From NCBI RefSeq assembly GCF_001677475.2, contig NZ_CP015229.1: DNA of 64,000 nucleotides. One strand, 5' to 3'. Shown one piece after another: positions 36,995 to 45,800 of the stretch. The DNA comes from Escherichia coli (lineage in GTDB: Bacteria > Pseudomonadota > Gammaproteobacteria > Enterobacterales > Enterobacteriaceae). The notes under the pieces were generated by a model. It did no database searches. It saw nothing but the letters and a program-made list of their open reading frames with translations, and had not been told where the DNA came from. The first letter of the stretch is position 1. Each line of letters starts with the position of its first letter. The position numbers were made by a program, and so were the translations under genes.

Positions 36995-37070
<76 letters not shown>

Positions 37071-37078
37071 TCAAGTCC

Positions 37079-37163
<85 letters not shown>

Positions 37164-37279
37164 ATTTCGGCCACGCGATGGCGTAGCCCGAGACGATAAG
37201 TTCGCTTACCGGCTCGAATAAAGAGAGCTTCTCTCGATATTCAGTGCAGAATGAAAATCAGGTAGCCGAGTTCCAGGAT

Positions 37280-37354
<75 letters not shown>

Positions 37355-37360
37355 AGATGT

Positions 37361-37436
37361 GCTGATATAGCTCAGTTGGTAGAGCGCACCCTTGGTAAGG
37401 GTGAGGTCGGCAGTTCGAATCTGCCTATCAGCACCA
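37361..37436 (+). tRNA. thrT: tRNA-Thr
   Basis: GCTGATATAGCTCAGTTGGTAGAGCGCACCCTTGGTAAGGGTGAGGTCGGCAGTTCGAATCTGCCTATCAGCACCA. Confidence 0.98.
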
Positions 37437-37514
37437 CTTCTTTTCTCCTTCCTGTTTTTTCCTTCTGTTTATTGCATTCAACAAGTCGGGCATGTTGCCT
37501 GGTTGATGTGGTGA

Positions 37515-38735
<1,221 letters not shown>

Positions 38736-38766
38736 TTGCCGATAACATTTGACGCAATGCGCACTA

Positions 38767-38792
38767 AAAGGGCATCATTTGATGCCCTTTTT
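38767..38792 (+). terminator. tufB intrinsic terminator
   Basis: aaagggcatcatttgatgccctttttg. Confidence 0.8.
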
Positions 38793-38964
38793 GCACGCTT
38801 TCGTACCAGAACCTGGCTCATCAGTGATTTTCTTTGTCATAATCATTGCTGAGACAGGCTCTGTTGAGGGCGTATAATCCGAAAAGCTAATACGCGTTTC
38901 GATTTGGTTTGCCTCGCGATCGCGGGGTGAAAATGTTTGTAGAAAACTTCTGACAGGTTGGTTT

Positions 38965-39348
38965 ATGAGTGCGAATACCGAAGCTCAAGGAAGCGGGCGC
39001 GGCCTGGAAGCGATGAAGTGGGTCGTTGTGGTGGCATTGCTCCTGGTGGCGATTGTCGGCAACTATCTTTATCGCGACATTATGCTGCCGCTGCGTGCGC
39101 TGGCCGTAGTAATTCTGATTGCTGCAGCGGGTGGTGTCGCGCTGTTAACGACAAAAGGTAAAGCTACCGTTGCTTTTGCCCGTGAAGCGCGTACCGAAGT
39201 CCGTAAGGTCATTTGGCCGACTCGCCAGGAAACATTGCACACCACGCTGATTGTGGCTGCGGTTACCGCAGTAATGTCACTGATCCTGTGGGGACTGGAT
39301 GGTATTCTGGTTCGCCTGGTATCCTTTATCACTGGCCTGAGGTTCTGA
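38965..39348 (+). CDS. secE: Preprotein translocase subunit SecE
   Basis: 127-aa ORF with three hydrophobic segments. Confidence 0.95.
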
Positions 39349-39349
39349 G

Positions 39350-39895
39350 ATGTCTGAAGCTCCTAAAAAGCGCTGGTACGTCGTTCAGGCGTTTTCCGGT
39401 TTTGAAGGCCGCGTAGCAACGTCGCTGCGTGAGCATATCAAATTACACAACATGGAAGATTTGTTTGGTGAAGTCATGGTACCAACCGAAGAAGTGGTTG
39501 AAATCCGTGGCGGTCAGCGTCGCAAAAGCGAACGTAAATTCTTCCCTGGCTACGTCCTCGTTCAGATGGTGATGAACGACGCGAGCTGGCACCTGGTGCG
39601 CAGCGTACCGCGTGTGATGGGCTTCATCGGTGGTACTTCCGATCGTCCTGCGCCAATCAGCGATAAAGAAGTCGATGCGATTATGAACCGCCTGCAGCAG
39701 GTTGGTGATAAGCCGCGTCCGAAAACGCTGTTTGAACCGGGTGAAATGGTCCGTGTTAATGATGGTCCGTTCGCTGACTTCAACGGTGTTGTTGAAGAAG
39801 TGGATTACGAGAAATCTCGTCTGAAAGTGTCTGTTTCTATCTTCGGTCGTGCGACCCCGGTAGAGCTGGACTTCAGCCAGGTTGAAAAAGCCTAA
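39350..39895 (+). CDS. nusG: Transcription antitermination factor NusG
   Basis: 181-aa [26 protein letters not shown].. Confidence 0.96.
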
Positions 39896-39926
39896 CCCAG
39901 CGATCAAAAAAGCGGCGATTTAATCG

Positions 39927-39973
39927 TTGCACAAGGCGCGAGATTGGAATACAATTTCGCGCCTTTTGTTTTT
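39927..39973 (+). promoter_or_regulatory. rplKA (L11 operon) promoter superimposed on the nusG terminator hairpin
   Basis: -35 TTGCAC (39927-39932), 17-bp spacer, -10 TACAAT (39950-39955); embedded hairpin ggcgcgagatt..aatttcgcgcc followed by TTTTGTTTTT. Confidence 0.6.
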
Positions 39974-39990
39974 ATGGGCCTTGCCCGTAA

Positions 39991-41190
<1,200 letters not shown>

Positions 41191-41602
41191 TGCCTTTACG
41201 TGGGCGGTGATTTTGTCTACAATCTTACCCCCACGTATAATGCTTAATGCAGACGTATATCCGAGATATTCGGGTTGTGGCAAGGCGGCAACTGAGTGAG
41301 TCGCCAGGAGCATAGCTAACTATGTGACTGGTGCGAACGAAGGAAGCCAACGCCGCCACAAGCTGAATAGCGACGGATAGAAAAGATTTGTTCGTTGGAG
41401 CCTGGCCTATCCAGGCCTCCGTCGAAGACCGCAGGAGTTTCGCAAGAAACTTAATCCCCTGCGTAGACGGTGACAGAACGCTAAGATTATTCTTTTATAT
41501 TCTGGCTTGTTTCTGCTCACCGTAATTAAGACGCTCTCTCCGTTTGGAGGAGTGAAGTGAGTTCCAGAGATTTTCTCTGGCAAACATCCAGGAGCAAAGC
41601 TA
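41191..41602 (+). promoter_or_regulatory. rplJL leader (L10 promoter and L10-(L12)4 autoregulatory mRNA leader)
   Basis: About 410-nt untranslated, structured region between rplA and rplJ, as in the known L10 operon. Confidence 0.65.
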
Positions 41603-42100
41603 ATGGCTTTAAATCTTCAAGACAAACAAGCGATTGTTGCTGAAGTCAGCGAAGTAGCCAAAGGCGCGCTGTCTGCAGTAGTTGCGGATTCCCGTGGCGT
41701 AACTGTAGATAAAATGACTGAACTGCGTAAAGCAGGTCGCGAAGCTGGCGTATACATGCGTGTTGTTCGTAACACCCTGCTGCGCCGTGCTGTTGAAGGT
41801 ACTCCGTTCGAGTGCCTGAAAGACGCGTTTGTTGGTCCGACCCTGATTGCATACTCTATGGAACACCCGGGCGCTGCTGCTCGTCTGTTCAAAGAGTTCG
41901 CGAAAGCGAATGCAAAATTTGAGGTCAAAGCCGCTGCCTTTGAAGGTGAGCTGATCCCGGCGTCTCAGATCGACCGCCTGGCAACTCTGCCGACCTACGA
42001 AGAAGCAATTGCACGCCTGATGGCAACCATGAAAGAAGCTTCGGCTGGCAAACTGGTTCGTACTCTGGCTGCTGTACGCGATGCGAAAGAAGCTGCTTAA
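41603..42100 (+). CDS. rplJ: 50S ribosomal protein L10
   Basis: 165-aa [32 protein letters not shown].. Confidence 0.98.
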
Positions 42101-42166
42101 TCGCAGTTATCTTTTTAACGCATTCGCTTACGTATAAACTTATTCTGATATTCAGGAACAATTTAA

Positions 42167-42532
<366 letters not shown>

Positions 42533-42550
42533 GCCAACCCTTCCGGTTGC

Positions 42551-42606
42551 AGCCTGAGAAATCAGGCTGATGGCTGGTGACTTTTTAGTCACCAGCCTTT
42601 TTGCGC
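42551..42606 (+). terminator. rplL-rpoB intercistronic attenuator
   Basis: Two hairpins (cagcctgagaaatcaggctg; ggctggtgactttttagtcaccagcc) followed by TTTTTGCGC. Confidence 0.75.
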
Positions 42607-42851
42607 TGTAAGGCGCCAGTAGCGTTTCACACTGTTTGACTACTGCTGTGCCTTTCAATGCTTGTTTCTATCGACGACTTAATATACTGCGACAGGACGT
42701 CCGTTCTGTGTAAATCGCAATGAAATGGTTTAAGCGTGATAGCAACAGGCATTGCGGAAAGTGTTCCATTTTCCGGTCAACAAAATAGTGTTGCACAAAC
42801 TGTCCGCTCAATGGACAGATGGGTCGACTTGTCAGCGAGCTGAGGAACCCT

Positions 42852-45800
42852 ATGGTTTACTCCTATACCGAGAAAAAACGTATTCGTAAGGATTTTGGTA
42901 AACGTCCACAAGTTCTGGATGTACCTTATCTCCTTTCTATCCAGCTTGACTCGTTTCAGAAATTTATCGAGCAAGATCCTGAAGGGCAGTATGGTCTGGA
43001 AGCTGCTTTCCGTTCCGTATTCCCGATTCAGAGCTACAGCGGTAATTCCGAGCTGCAATACGTCAGCTACCGCCTTGGCGAACCGGTGTTTGACGTCCAG
43101 GAATGTCAAATCCGTGGCGTGACCTATTCCGCACCGCTGCGCGTTAAACTGCGTCTGGTGATCTATGAGCGCGAAGCGCCGGAAGGCACCGTAAAAGACA
43201 TTAAAGAACAAGAAGTCTACATGGGCGAAATTCCGCTCATGACAGACAACGGTACCTTTGTTATCAACGGTACTGAGCGTGTTATCGTTTCCCAGCTGCA
43301 CCGTAGTCCGGGCGTCTTCTTTGACTCCGACAAAGGTAAAACCCACTCTTCGGGTAAAGTGCTGTATAACGCGCGCATCATCCCTTACCGTGGTTCCTGG
43401 CTGGACTTCGAATTCGATCCGAAGGACAACCTGTTCGTACGTATCGACCGTCGCCGTAAACTGCCTGCGACCATCATTCTGCGCGCCCTGAACTACACCA
43501 CAGAGCAGATCCTCGACCTGTTCTTTGAAAAAGTTATCTTTGAAATCCGTGATAACAAGCTGCAGATGGAACTGGTGCCGGAACGCCTGCGTGGTGAAAC
43601 CGCATCTTTTGACATCGAAGCTAACGGTAAAGTGTACGTAGAAAAAGGCCGCCGTATCACTGCGCGCCACATTCGCCAGCTGGAAAAAGACGACGTCAAA
43701 CTGATCGAAGTCCCGGTTGAGTACATCGCAGGTAAAGTGGTTGCTAAAGACTATATTGATGAGTCTACCGGCGAGCTGATCTGCGCAGCGAACATGGAGC
43801 TGAGCCTGGATCTGCTGGCTAAGCTGAGCCAGTCTGGTCACAAGCGTATCGAAACGCTGTTCACCAACGACCTGGATCACGGCCCGTATATCTCTGAAAC
43901 CTTACGTGTCGACCCAACTAACGACCGTCTGAGCGCACTGGTAGAAATCTACCGCATGATGCGCCCTGGCGAGCCGCCGACTCGTGAAGCAGCTGAAAGC
44001 CTGTTCGAGAACCTGTTCTTCTCCGAAGACCGTTATGACCTGTCTGCGGTTGGTCGTATGAAGTTCAACCGTTCTCTGCTGCGCGAAGAAATCGAAGGTT
44101 CCGGTATCCTGAGCAAAGACGACATCATTGATGTTATGAAAAAACTCATCGATATCCGTAACGGTAAAGGCGAAGTCGATGATATCGACCACCTCGGCAA
44201 CCGTCGTATCCGTTCCGTTGGCGAAATGGCGGAAAACCAGTTCCGCGTTGGCCTGGTACGTGTAGAGCGTGCGGTGAAAGAGCGTCTGTCTCTGGGCGAT
44301 CTGGATACCCTGATGCCTCAGGATATGATCAACGCCAAGCCGATTTCCGCAGCAGTGAAAGAGTTCTTCGGTTCCAGCCAGTTGTCTCAGTTTATGGACC
44401 AGAACAACCCGCTGTCTGAGATTACGCACAAACGTCGTATCTCCGCACTCGGCCCAGGCGGTCTGACCCGTGAACGTGCAGGCTTCGAAGTTCGAGACGT
44501 ACACCCGACTCACTACGGTCGCGTATGTCCAATCGAAACCCCTGAAGGTCCGAACATCGGTCTGATCAACTCTCTGTCCGTGTACGCACAGACTAACGAA
44601 TACGGCTTCCTTGAGACTCCGTATCGTAAAGTGACTGACGGTGTTGTAACCGACGAAATTCACTACCTGTCTGCTATCGAAGAAGGCAACTACGTTATCG
44701 CTCAGGCGAACTCCAACCTGGATGAAGAAGGCCACTTCGTAGAAGACCTGGTAACTTGCCGTAGCAAAGGCGAATCCAGCTTGTTCAGCCGCGACCAGGT
44801 TGACTACATGGACGTATCCACTCAGCAGGTGGTATCCGTCGGTGCGTCCCTGATCCCGTTCCTGGAACACGATGACGCCAACCGTGCATTGATGGGTGCG
44901 AACATGCAACGTCAGGCCGTTCCGACTCTGCGCGCTGATAAGCCGCTGGTTGGTACGGGTATGGAACGTGCTGTTGCCGTTGACTCCGGTGTAACTGCGG
45001 TTGCTAAACGTGGCGGTGTCGTTCAGTACGTGGATGCTTCCCGTATCGTTATCAAAGTTAACGAAGACGAGATGTATCCGGGTGAAGCAGGTATCGACAT
45101 CTACAACCTGACCAAATACACCCGTTCTAACCAGAACACCTGTATCAACCAGATGCCGTGTGTGTCTCTGGGTGAACCGGTAGAACGTGGCGACGTGCTG
45201 GCAGACGGTCCGTCCACCGACCTCGGTGAACTGGCGCTTGGTCAGAACATGCGCGTAGCGTTCATGCCGTGGAATGGTTACAACTTCGAAGACTCCATCC
45301 TCGTATCCGAGCGTGTTGTTCAGGAAGACCGTTTCACCACCATCCACATTCAGGAACTGGCGTGTGTGTCCCGTGACACCAAGCTGGGGCCGGAAGAGAT
45401 CACCGCTGACATCCCGAACGTGGGTGAAGCTGCGCTCTCCAAACTGGATGAATCCGGTATCGTTTACATTGGTGCGGAAGTGACCGGTGGTGACATTCTG
45501 GTTGGTAAGGTAACGCCGAAAGGTGAAACTCAGCTGACCCCAGAAGAAAAACTGCTGCGTGCGATCTTCGGTGAGAAAGCGTCTGACGTTAAAGACTCTT
45601 CTCTGCGCGTACCAAACGGTGTATCCGGTACGGTTATCGACGTTCAGGTCTTTACTCGCGATGGCGTAGAAAAAGACAAACGTGCGCTGGAAATCGAAGA
45701 AATGCAGCTCAAACAGGCGAAGAAAGACCTGTCTGAAGAACTGCAGATCCTCGAAGCGGGTCTGTTCAGCCGTATCCGTGCTGTGCTGGTAGCCGGTGGC

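What the first reader, a model, noticed from the sequence alone, without database searches (positions are those of the whole stretch)
39927..39973. nusG terminator hairpin coincides with the L11-operon promoter
The -35 TTGCAC and -10 TACAAT hexamers of the rplKA promoter sit on the two arms of a hairpin (ggcgcgagatt..aatttcgcgcc plus T-run) that should terminate secE-nusG transcripts. The same 45 bp therefore encode a stop signal in RNA and a start signal in DNA.
Basis: partly seen in the sequence, partly recalled or inferred. Interest (0 to 1): 0.25.

Follow-up and report, generated by a model that had tools for sequence, protein, structure and literature searches.

The report
nusG terminator overlapping the rplK promoter
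In E. coli, the stretch of DNA that stops transcription of the secE-nusG operon is also the promoter that starts the ribosomal-protein L11 operon; this is real and deeply conserved, but it has already been published, so the finding is ordinary.

Summary
The window is the E. coli tufB-secE-nusG-rplKAJL region.

One detail is wrong. The -35 lies just 5' of the stem, not on an arm. The 5' arm is the promoter spacer. The -10 spans the loop and the top of the 3' arm. The GC-rich discriminator is the base of the 3' arm.

Published MG1655 maps place a Term-seq 3' end at window 39969 and a capped 5' end of an rplKAJL transcript at 39963.

60 of 67 Enterobacterales and Vibrionaceae loci with adjacent nusG and rplK keep the same composite. 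Its stem is paired in 91% of cells, and most non-Watson-Crick cells are G·U wobbles that pair only in + strand RNA. In Orbales nusG is not followed by rplK, and nusG there ends in unrelated, ordinary terminators.

Brandis, Cao and Hughes (2019) already described this secE-rpoBC terminator-promoter overlap in Salmonella.

Verdict: correct, already known, low interest.

The parts
39350..39895 (+). nusG coding sequence, the last gene of the secE-nusG operon, whose transcripts the hairpin ends
   Evidence: ORF list. Annotated as nusG in E. coli genomes.
39912..39930 (+). Upstream 8-pair hairpin GCGGCGAU-UUA-AUCGUUGC. Its 3' arm contains TTGC of the -35. Role unknown.
   Evidence: Predicted in the MFE fold. 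Retained with A-U/G·U changes in Klebsiella, Siccibacter and Cedecea.
39927..39932 (+). -35 hexamer TTGCAC of the rplK (L11 operon) promoter, lying 5' of the terminator stem
   Evidence: Sequence. TTG is invariant in 58 distinct homologous segments at a fixed 17-bp spacing.
39933..39946 (+). 5' arm of the terminator stem, which is also the promoter spacer
   Evidence: The sequence GGCGCGAAATT is unusually conserved for a spacer, and its substitutions are mostly C>U or A>G, which keep RNA pairing.
39947..39951 (+). Hairpin loop GAATA. Its last two bases are the TA of the -10.
39950..39955 (+). -10 hexamer TACAAT
   Evidence: TAnAAT is invariant or nearly invariant in alignment A1.
39952..39965 (+). 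3' arm of the terminator stem. It comprises the end of the -10, the GC-rich discriminator TTCGCGC (39956-39962) and the start site.
   Evidence: It carries about four times fewer differences from consensus than the 5' arm (15 vs 59).
39963..39963 (+). Transcription start of rplKAJL mRNA (MG1655 4178356)
   Evidence: SMRT-Cappable-seq table, Yan et al. 2018. Coordinate conversion.
39964..39975 (+). T-run TTTTGTTTTTAT. It is the U-tract of the terminator and also the first transcribed bases of rplK mRNA.
   Evidence: T44, T45, T46, T51 and T53 of A1 are invariant or at least 90% conserved.
39969..39969 (+). Mapped RNA 3' end of upstream transcripts (MG1655 4178362)
   Evidence: Term-seq, Adams et al. 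2021, supplementary file 1.
39970..39992 (+). Second hairpin, at +8 to +30 of rplK mRNA. It is a 5' leader stem-loop and not an efficient terminator.
   Evidence: Nearly every Enterobacterales leader folds a hairpin here with a different stem sequence. No Term-seq 3' end is listed between 4178362 and 4179776.
40009..40036 (+). L1-binding (autoregulatory) stem-loop in the rplK leader
   Evidence: RNAalifold consensus with compensatory changes in 3 of 8 pairs. Role as described in review PMC10931766.
40054..40482 (+). rplK (L11) coding sequence

Best explanation
This is a dual-use element in the nusG-rplK spacer of E. coli.

Read as RNA by polymerases coming from the secE-nusG promoter or from tufB read-through, bases 39933-39975 form a 14-pair GC-rich hairpin followed by a U-tract. 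This is an intrinsic terminator that releases transcripts at about 39969.

Read as DNA by sigma-70 holoenzyme, bases 39927-39963 are the L11-operon promoter: TTGCAC, 17 bp, TACAAT, GC-rich discriminator, start at C39963.

The fit is economical:
- The promoter spacer, normally free to vary, supplies the 5' arm.
- The -10 supplies the loop and the stem top.
- The GC-rich discriminator supplies the strong base of the stem.
- The T-run is both the terminator U-tract and the first transcribed bases of rplK mRNA.

Because rplK mRNA starts at the last stem base, it lacks the 5' arm and does not terminate itself.

Shown: the sequence anatomy, both RNA ends (published maps), the conservation and the RNA-type covariation.

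Inferred: the main job is to insulate the strongly and separately regulated rplKAJL-rpoBC unit from upstream transcription. A side effect is that every terminating polymerase must traverse, and transiently occlude, the rplK promoter. This ties the two operons together physically and possibly in expression, as Brandis et al. showed experimentally for the neighbouring tufB-secE junction.
For: Anatomy.

Identity as the E. coli nusG-rplK spacer.

Mapped RNA ends: 3' end at 39969; primary 5' end at 39963 of a transcript covering rplKAJL.

Conservation: 60 of 67 loci with adjacent nusG and rplK keep TTGnnn-17-TAnAAT-TTCGCGCC-Tn. These include Vibrio and Aliivibrio. The composite is not detected only in reduced endosymbionts and one uncultured Enterobacterales MAG.

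Pairing: 91.1% of cells are paired, against 35-56% when the partners are slid. Five pairs show double changes, including three compensatory pairs in Proteus and a G-C to C-G swap in Aliivibrio.

Strand specificity: non-Watson-Crick cells are 62 G·U type (pairing only in + strand RNA) against 19 A·C type. The 5' arm carries 59 differences from consensus and the 3' arm 15. The E. coli population is itself split between C-G and U·G at 39939.

Natural experiment: in Orbales nusG is not followed by rplK, and nusG ends in unrelated ordinary terminators without promoter hexamers.

Prior description of the same overlap in Salmonella, with functional data for tufB-secE: PMC6735719.

The link between GC-rich discriminators and ppGpp/DksA-inhibited promoters: review PMC9304144.
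Against: - Termination efficiency was not measured. Term-seq cannot by itself separate termination from trimming back to a stable hairpin.
- I could reach only one start-site dataset (M9 medium). Its coordinate could be off by one base.
- The 3' end is listed in two of three growth conditions and is classed 'orphan' by the authors.
- TTGCAC is a weak -35 (3 of 6).
- Functional coupling (occlusion) has been demonstrated only for tufB-secE, not for this junction.
- Covariation counts are per sequence, not per independent evolutionary event.
- The classical papers on this promoter and terminator (Post et al. 1979; Downing et al. 1990) could not be read here.
Confidence: 0.85

Rival explanations
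1. The inverted repeat is selected as a DNA feature of the promoter, either as a protein operator or as a supercoiling-sensitive cruciform in the spacer and discriminator. On this view the 3' ends at 39969 are a by-product.
For: It is a near-perfect 14-bp palindrome inside a promoter. The discriminator half is almost invariant.
Against: Substitutions are biased about 3:1 to G·U wobbles, which pair in + strand RNA but are mismatches in DNA or in - strand RNA. The MG1655 allele itself has U·G. The conserved T-run after the stem has no role in an operator. A 3' end maps in the U-tract. The antisense hairpin has an internal mismatch and no U-tract.
Confidence: 0.04
2. The hairpin is an RNA 3'-end stabiliser, not a terminator. 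Upstream transcripts read through or end elsewhere and are trimmed back by exonucleases to the stable stem.
For: Term-seq reports steady-state 3' ends only. The authors class the site as 'orphan'.
Against: A strong GC-rich stem directly followed by UUUUGUUUUU is the canonical intrinsic-terminator form. The 3' end lies 4-6 nt into the U-tract, as expected for termination. No Rho-termination region with a coordinate in 4178300-4178399 appears in the same paper's tables. From memory, Downing et al. 1990 reported a Rho-independent terminator after nusG.
Confidence: 0.05
3. The overlap exists to hand polymerase over. Core RNA polymerase released from nusG RNA at 39969 stays on the DNA, rebinds sigma-70 and re-initiates at the promoter it is already sitting on. 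NusG-operon traffic would then boost L11-operon output rather than occluding it.
For: Single-molecule work shows post-termination polymerase sliding and re-initiating at nearby promoters, with efficiency rising as the terminator-promoter distance falls (PMC6978380, PMC10372574). Here that distance is zero.
Against: No evidence at this locus. At the analogous tufB-secE overlap, more upstream traffic lowered downstream expression, the opposite sign. The rplK promoter is strong on its own (1146 start-site reads), so the contribution would be small.
Confidence: 0.06

Closest known systems
Interoperon terminator-promoter overlap of the secE-rpoBC junction in Salmonella (Brandis, Cao & Hughes 2019, Mol Biol Evol 36:1990; PMC6735719)
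   Same: It is the orthologous junction (nusG to rplK) in a close relative, with the same claim: the terminator hairpin overlaps the -35/-10 of the next operon's promoter. [quoted passage not shown]
   Different: For this junction that paper gives only a sequence figure for Salmonella. It reports no RNA-end data, no phylogenetic survey and no covariation. Those are added here: E. coli ends from public maps, 60 species, the wobble asymmetry and the Orbales contrast.
Classical PL11 promoter and secE-nusG terminator of E. coli (Post et al. 1979 PNAS; Downing et al. 1990 J Bacteriol 172:1621) - recalled from memory; the papers are not held in the library
   Same: The same promoter and the same Rho-independent terminator downstream of nusG.
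   Different: I could not verify what those papers say about the overlap. The coordinates used here come from genome-wide maps.
Canonical intrinsic (Rho-independent) terminators
   Same: GC-rich stem, short loop, U-tract, and a 3' end in the U-tract.
   Different: The loop, stem top and 5' flank are fixed by promoter hexamers. The sequence is frozen across Enterobacterales and Vibrionaceae, whereas ordinary terminators such as the Orbales nusG terminators drift freely.
Stringently controlled sigma-70 promoters with GC-rich discriminators (rRNA and r-protein promoters; review PMC9304144)
   Same: GC-rich discriminator TTCGCGC between the -10 and the start, with the start 8 nt after the -10, on a ribosomal-protein operon.
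   Different: Here the discriminator is also the base of an RNA stem, and the spacer and initial transcribed T-run are conserved for reasons outside promoter function. ppGpp/DksA sensitivity of this promoter was not tested here.

Membership tests
Intrinsic (Rho-independent) terminator | Stable GC-rich hairpin immediately followed by a U-rich tract | tested here: met
   14 pairs including 7 G-C, loop of 5, then TTTTGTTTTT. Folding energy -22.7 kcal/mol, z = -7.3.
Intrinsic (Rho-independent) terminator | RNA 3' ends map within the U-tract in vivo | tested here: met
   Published Term-seq 3' end at MG1655 4178362, which is window 39969.
Intrinsic (Rho-independent) terminator | Stem pairing is maintained by selection in the transcribed strand | tested here: met
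   91.1% of cells paired against 35-56% for slid controls. Five pairs show double changes. G·U cells outnumber A·C cells 62 to 19.
Intrinsic (Rho-independent) terminator | Termination by pure RNA polymerase without Rho, and its measured efficiency | not testable with these tools
   Needs in vitro transcription. The only indirect evidence is that no Rho-region entry lies in 4178300-4178399.
Sigma-70 promoter | -35 and -10 hexamers at 16-18 bp spacing | tested here: met
   TTGCAC, 17 bp, TACAAT. TTG and TAnAAT are invariant at a fixed 17-bp spacing in 58 distinct segments.
Sigma-70 promoter | Primary (triphosphate) 5' end 6-9 nt downstream of the -10 | tested here: met
   Published SMRT-Cappable-seq start at 4178356, which is window 39963, 8 nt after the -10.
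Interoperon terminator-promoter overlap (Brandis et al. 2019) | The terminator of the upstream operon physically overlaps the -35/-10 of the downstream operon's promoter | tested here: met
   The stem 39933-39965 lies between and over the hexamers 39927-39932 and 39950-39955. The 3' end at 39969 lies 6 nt downstream of the start at 39963.
Interoperon terminator-promoter overlap (Brandis et al. 2019) | Upstream transcription load changes downstream promoter output (functional coupling) | not testable with these tools
   Shown only for tufB-secE in Salmonella. Not examined for nusG-rplK.
ppGpp/DksA-inhibited (stringent) promoter | GC-rich discriminator | tested here: met
   TTCGCGC(C), at least 90% conserved. 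General rule from PMC9304144.
ppGpp/DksA-inhibited (stringent) promoter | Direct inhibition by ppGpp/DksA | not tested
   Lemke et al. 2011 is not held in the library. No data were examined here.

The most novel reading that the evidence does not exclude
The zero-distance overlap is a polymerase hand-off or dosage-coupling device. Either polymerases finishing nusG re-initiate directly at the rplK promoter, or their passage throttles it. Synthesis of NusG, a termination factor, would then be wired to synthesis of L11/L1/L10/L7-L12 and the RNA polymerase beta and beta' subunits, without any trans-acting regulator.
Probability: 0.1. Interest if true: 0.5.

Novelty: already known. Interest (0 to 1): 0.12.

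Why it matters
The element shows clearly how one short sequence can satisfy two unrelated codes: an RNA structure and a DNA recognition site. It also shows how such overlaps can lock neighbouring operons together over long evolutionary times. That idea, and this very junction, are already in the literature (PMC6735719). Both RNA ends are in public E. coli datasets. The finding therefore confirms textbook-level organisation rather than opening a question.

The modest additions here are:
- RNA-specific wobble covariation in the stem
- persistence of the overlap across Enterobacterales and Vibrionaceae
- the Orbales contrast, where nusG and rplK are no longer adjacent and nusG ends in ordinary terminators

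Tried and rejected
- **Rfam:** a permissive search of 37000-43000 found no family covering 39900-40053.
- **Papers not held:** Downing 1990, Thomason 2015 dRNA-seq and Lemke 2011.
- **Supplements with nothing usable:** one wrong PMC id; the Cappable-seq supplement held no matching coordinate; the Rend-seq annotation paper, the ROSE paper and the Dar & Sorek Term-seq paper had no usable supplement text.
- **Phrase search:** 'PL11 promoter' returned nothing.
- **Reaching further taxa by protein search:** I tried NusG to reach Pasteurellales and more distant Gammaproteobacteria, and L11 to reach the relocated Orbales rplK promoter. The listed hits stayed at 83% identity or above and included neither.
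- **Second hairpin as backup terminator (39970-39992):** rejected as the general explanation. Its trailing U-run is not conserved and no 3' end is mapped there.
- **DNA operator or cruciform reading:** rejected on the G·U asymmetry.
- **A terminator for the minus strand:** rejected. The antisense stem has a mismatch and is followed by UUGUGCAACG.

Full report
**What the region is.** The window around the finding encodes EF-Tu (37551-38735), SecE (38965-39348), NusG (39350-39895), L11 (40054-40482), L1, L10 and L7/L12. A 501-nt segment spanning the finding is 100% identical to many E. coli chromosomes, where it is annotated nusG | rplK. In MG1655, nusG lies at 4177743-4178288, so MG1655 coordinate = window coordinate + 4138393.

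**Checking the observation.** The sequence contains the following:
- TTGCAC at 39927-39932
- a 17-bp spacer at 39933-39949
- TACAAT at 39950-39955
- the arms GGCGCGAGATT (39935-39945) and AATTTCGCGCC (39953-39963)
- the T-run TTTTGTTTTTAT at 39964-39975

The scan tool reports a 14-pair stem at 39933-39965 with loop GAATA, followed by TTGTTTTTAT. It also reports a promoter-like match over the same place. The hairpin with its tail folds at -22.7 kcal/mol (z = -7.3), and the 85-nt context folds at -36.3 kcal/mol (z = -5.3).

The -35 hexamer is not on an arm; it sits immediately 5' of the stem. The 5' arm is the promoter spacer. The -10 contributes TA to the loop, C to the top pair and AAT to the 3' arm. 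The rest of the 3' arm is the GC-rich discriminator TTCGCGC plus the start base.

On sequence alone the coincidence is not very improbable. With my own scanner, promoter-like matches occur about 120 times per strand in the 64 kb. The chance of one lying over a given hairpin is then about 7%. TTGCAC matches only 3 of 6 consensus positions.

**Experimental ends already exist.**
- Adams et al. 2021 (PMC7815308) supplementary file 1 lists curated Term-seq 3' ends for MG1655 in three conditions. A + strand 3' end at 4178362 appears twice, with the flanking sequence of this hairpin. That is window 39969, in ...GCGCCUUUUGU.
- No other 3' end is listed between it and 4179776.
- Yan et al. 2018 (PMC6131387), Supplementary Data 1, lists a full-length capped, and therefore primary, transcript from 4178356 to 4180996. 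It covers b3983-b3986 (rplK, rplA, rplJ, rplL) and has 1146 reads at the start site. That start is window 39963, the last C of the stem, 8 nt after TACAAT.

So upstream transcripts end 6 nt downstream of where rplK transcripts begin. Because rplK mRNA begins at the last stem base, it lacks the 5' arm and cannot form the terminator.

**Variation within E. coli.** The MG1655 sequence printed in the Term-seq table has T where the window has C at 39939 (GGCGTGAGATT). This turns a C-G pair into U·G. The MG1655 hairpin still folds at -20.8 kcal/mol. Among 5404 E. coli genomes, 2148 carry the window's 61-mer exactly and 3256 differ by about one base.

**Comparative evidence.** A scan of one genome per species with NusG returned 80 loci from Enterobacterales, Orbales and Vibrionaceae. 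rplK lies directly downstream of nusG in 66 of them, and in MG1655.
- 60 of the 67 keep the same composite: TTGnnn, exactly 17 bp, TAnAAT, TTCGCGCC, then a T-run. This includes Aliivibrio and Vibrio.
- The seven where my pattern did not find it are six reduced insect endosymbionts and one uncultured Enterobacterales MAG.
- In the ungapped alignment of 58 distinct 61-nt segments (A1; column n = window 39920 + n), TTG, TA.A.T and most of the discriminator and T-run are invariant or at least 90% conserved. So is most of the spacer (GGCGCGAAATT), which is unusual for a spacer.

*Pairing.* Counting the 14 pairs on A1 gives 91.1% of cells paired, against 35-56% when the 3' partners are slid by 1-3 columns. 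Five pairs have changes on both sides, in 15 cells. Examples are Proteus mirabilis (GGTGGAAAAGT / AATTTTCCACC) and the outermost G-C to C-G swap in Aliivibrio.

*Wobble asymmetry.* Most variation is one-sided C>U or A>G on the 5' arm, which gives G·U wobbles.
- 62 cells pair only as + strand RNA, against 19 that would pair only in the opposite strand.
- The 5' arm carries 59 differences from consensus, against 15 on the 3' arm.

This pattern fits a stem selected in the + strand transcript. Its 3' half is additionally frozen by promoter function. These counts are per sequence, not per independent event.

**A natural experiment.** In Orbales (Gilliamella, Orbus, Zophobihabitans, Schmidhempelia), no rplK lies within 1.5-3 kb of nusG. 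In Orbus the next gene is a convergent oxidoreductase. There nusG is followed by ordinary A-tract/hairpin/T-tract terminators whose sequences are unrelated to the enterobacterial element and differ between genera. Examples are AAACCACAGGATTTTATCTTGTGGTTTTTT and AAAAACCGAGCTTCTGGCTCGGTTTTTTT. None has promoter hexamers. So nusG needs a terminator either way. The frozen sequence seen elsewhere goes with the presence of the rplK promoter.

**How it most likely works.**

*Shown:*
- the hairpin and U-tract
- the 3' end in the U-tract
- the hexamers with fixed spacing
- the primary 5' end 8 nt after the -10
- selection on RNA pairing

*Inferred:*
- Polymerases from the secE-nusG promoter, and any tufB read-through, terminate intrinsically at about 39969.
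- Sigma-70 holoenzyme initiates at 39963.
- The GC-rich discriminator, a hallmark of ppGpp/DksA-inhibited promoters (PMC9304144), doubles as the strong base of the stem.
- The main function is probably insulation of the separately regulated rplKAJL-rpoBC unit.
- Every terminating polymerase must cross the whole promoter, so some occlusion is unavoidable.

Brandis et al. showed for the neighbouring tufB-secE overlap that raising upstream traffic lowers downstream expression and fitness. They proposed 'promoter exclusion' as the principle.

The opposite possibility is that terminated polymerase stays on the DNA and re-initiates at the promoter it already occupies. Single-molecule work makes this conceivable (PMC6978380, PMC10372574), but it is untested here and has the opposite sign to the tufB-secE result.

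[quoted passage not shown] They show the -10, the -35 and the terminator for secE-rpoBC in their Fig. 5B. That is the orthologous element. From memory, the promoter (PL11, Post et al. 1979) and the Rho-independent terminator after nusG (Downing et al. 1990) are classical, but I could not read those papers here. The finding is therefore already known.

**Verdict.** Novelty: already known. Interest: low.

Noticed in passing
window 39970-39992: A second hairpin lies directly after the T-run, at +8 to +30 of rplK mRNA. Nearly every Enterobacterales rplK leader folds a hairpin at this place with a quite different stem sequence, so the structure is conserved but not the sequence. It is absent from the 62-nt Aliivibrio leader. 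No Term-seq 3' end is listed there. Its role (5' stabiliser, folding insulator or weak backup terminator) is open.
   Followed up: partly
window 39912-39930: An 8-pair hairpin GCGGCGAU-UUA-AUCGUUGC lies just upstream of the terminator. Its 3' arm contains the TTGC of the -35 hexamer. It is kept with A-U/G·U changes in Klebsiella, Siccibacter and Cedecea but not in more distant genera.
   Followed up: partly
window 38749-38794: The tufB-secE junction has the same design. A promoter-like TTGACG-18-CATCAT lies over the tufB terminator hairpin AAAAGGGCATCA/TGATGCCCTTTT. A published Term-seq 3' end maps at MG1655 4177187, which is window 38794. This matches the overlap studied experimentally by Brandis et al. 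2019.
   Followed up: partly
window 39994-40048: In the MFE fold of the rplK leader, the U-run GAUUUUUUA (39994-40002) pairs with the Shine-Dalgarno region UGAGGAAUU (40040-40048). This encloses the L1-binding stem-loop (40009-40036), which RNAalifold recovers with compensatory changes. Rfam has no family matching this leader.
   Followed up: partly
window 39939: This is a polymorphism within E. coli. The window has C (a C-G pair in the stem) and MG1655 has T (U·G). About 40% of 5404 complete genomes carry the window's 61-mer exactly; the rest differ by about one base.
   Followed up: partly
L060-L068, L072-L075, L081, L086, L087 (Orbales): nusG is not followed by rplK in Gilliamella, Orbus, Zophobihabitans or Schmidhempelia. 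In Orbus a convergent Pyr_redox_2 gene follows. This breaks the widely conserved secE-nusG-rplK-rplA order. I could not find where rplK sits in these genomes or what its promoter looks like.
   Followed up: partly
window 42537-42598: Rfam 'Pseudomonas sRNA P26' matches at 74.5 bits (gathering score 36) the rplL-rpoB intergenic hairpin and its T-run.
   Followed up: no
window 38852 (MG1655 4177245): The Term-seq table lists 4177187 in one condition's sheet and 4177245 in another's, in the tufB-secE spacer. The latter lies just upstream of a second promoter-like site (TATAAT at 38873-38878). Its origin is unexamined.
   Followed up: no
proteins P0001, P0005, P0014-P0016: Metagenome gene calls give 234-aa 'NusG' proteins and 299-310-aa SecE+NusG fusions at 94-100% identity to E. 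coli NusG. These are probably start-site or frameshift artefacts at the 1-nt secE-nusG junction (TGAGATG, 39346-39352).
   Followed up: no
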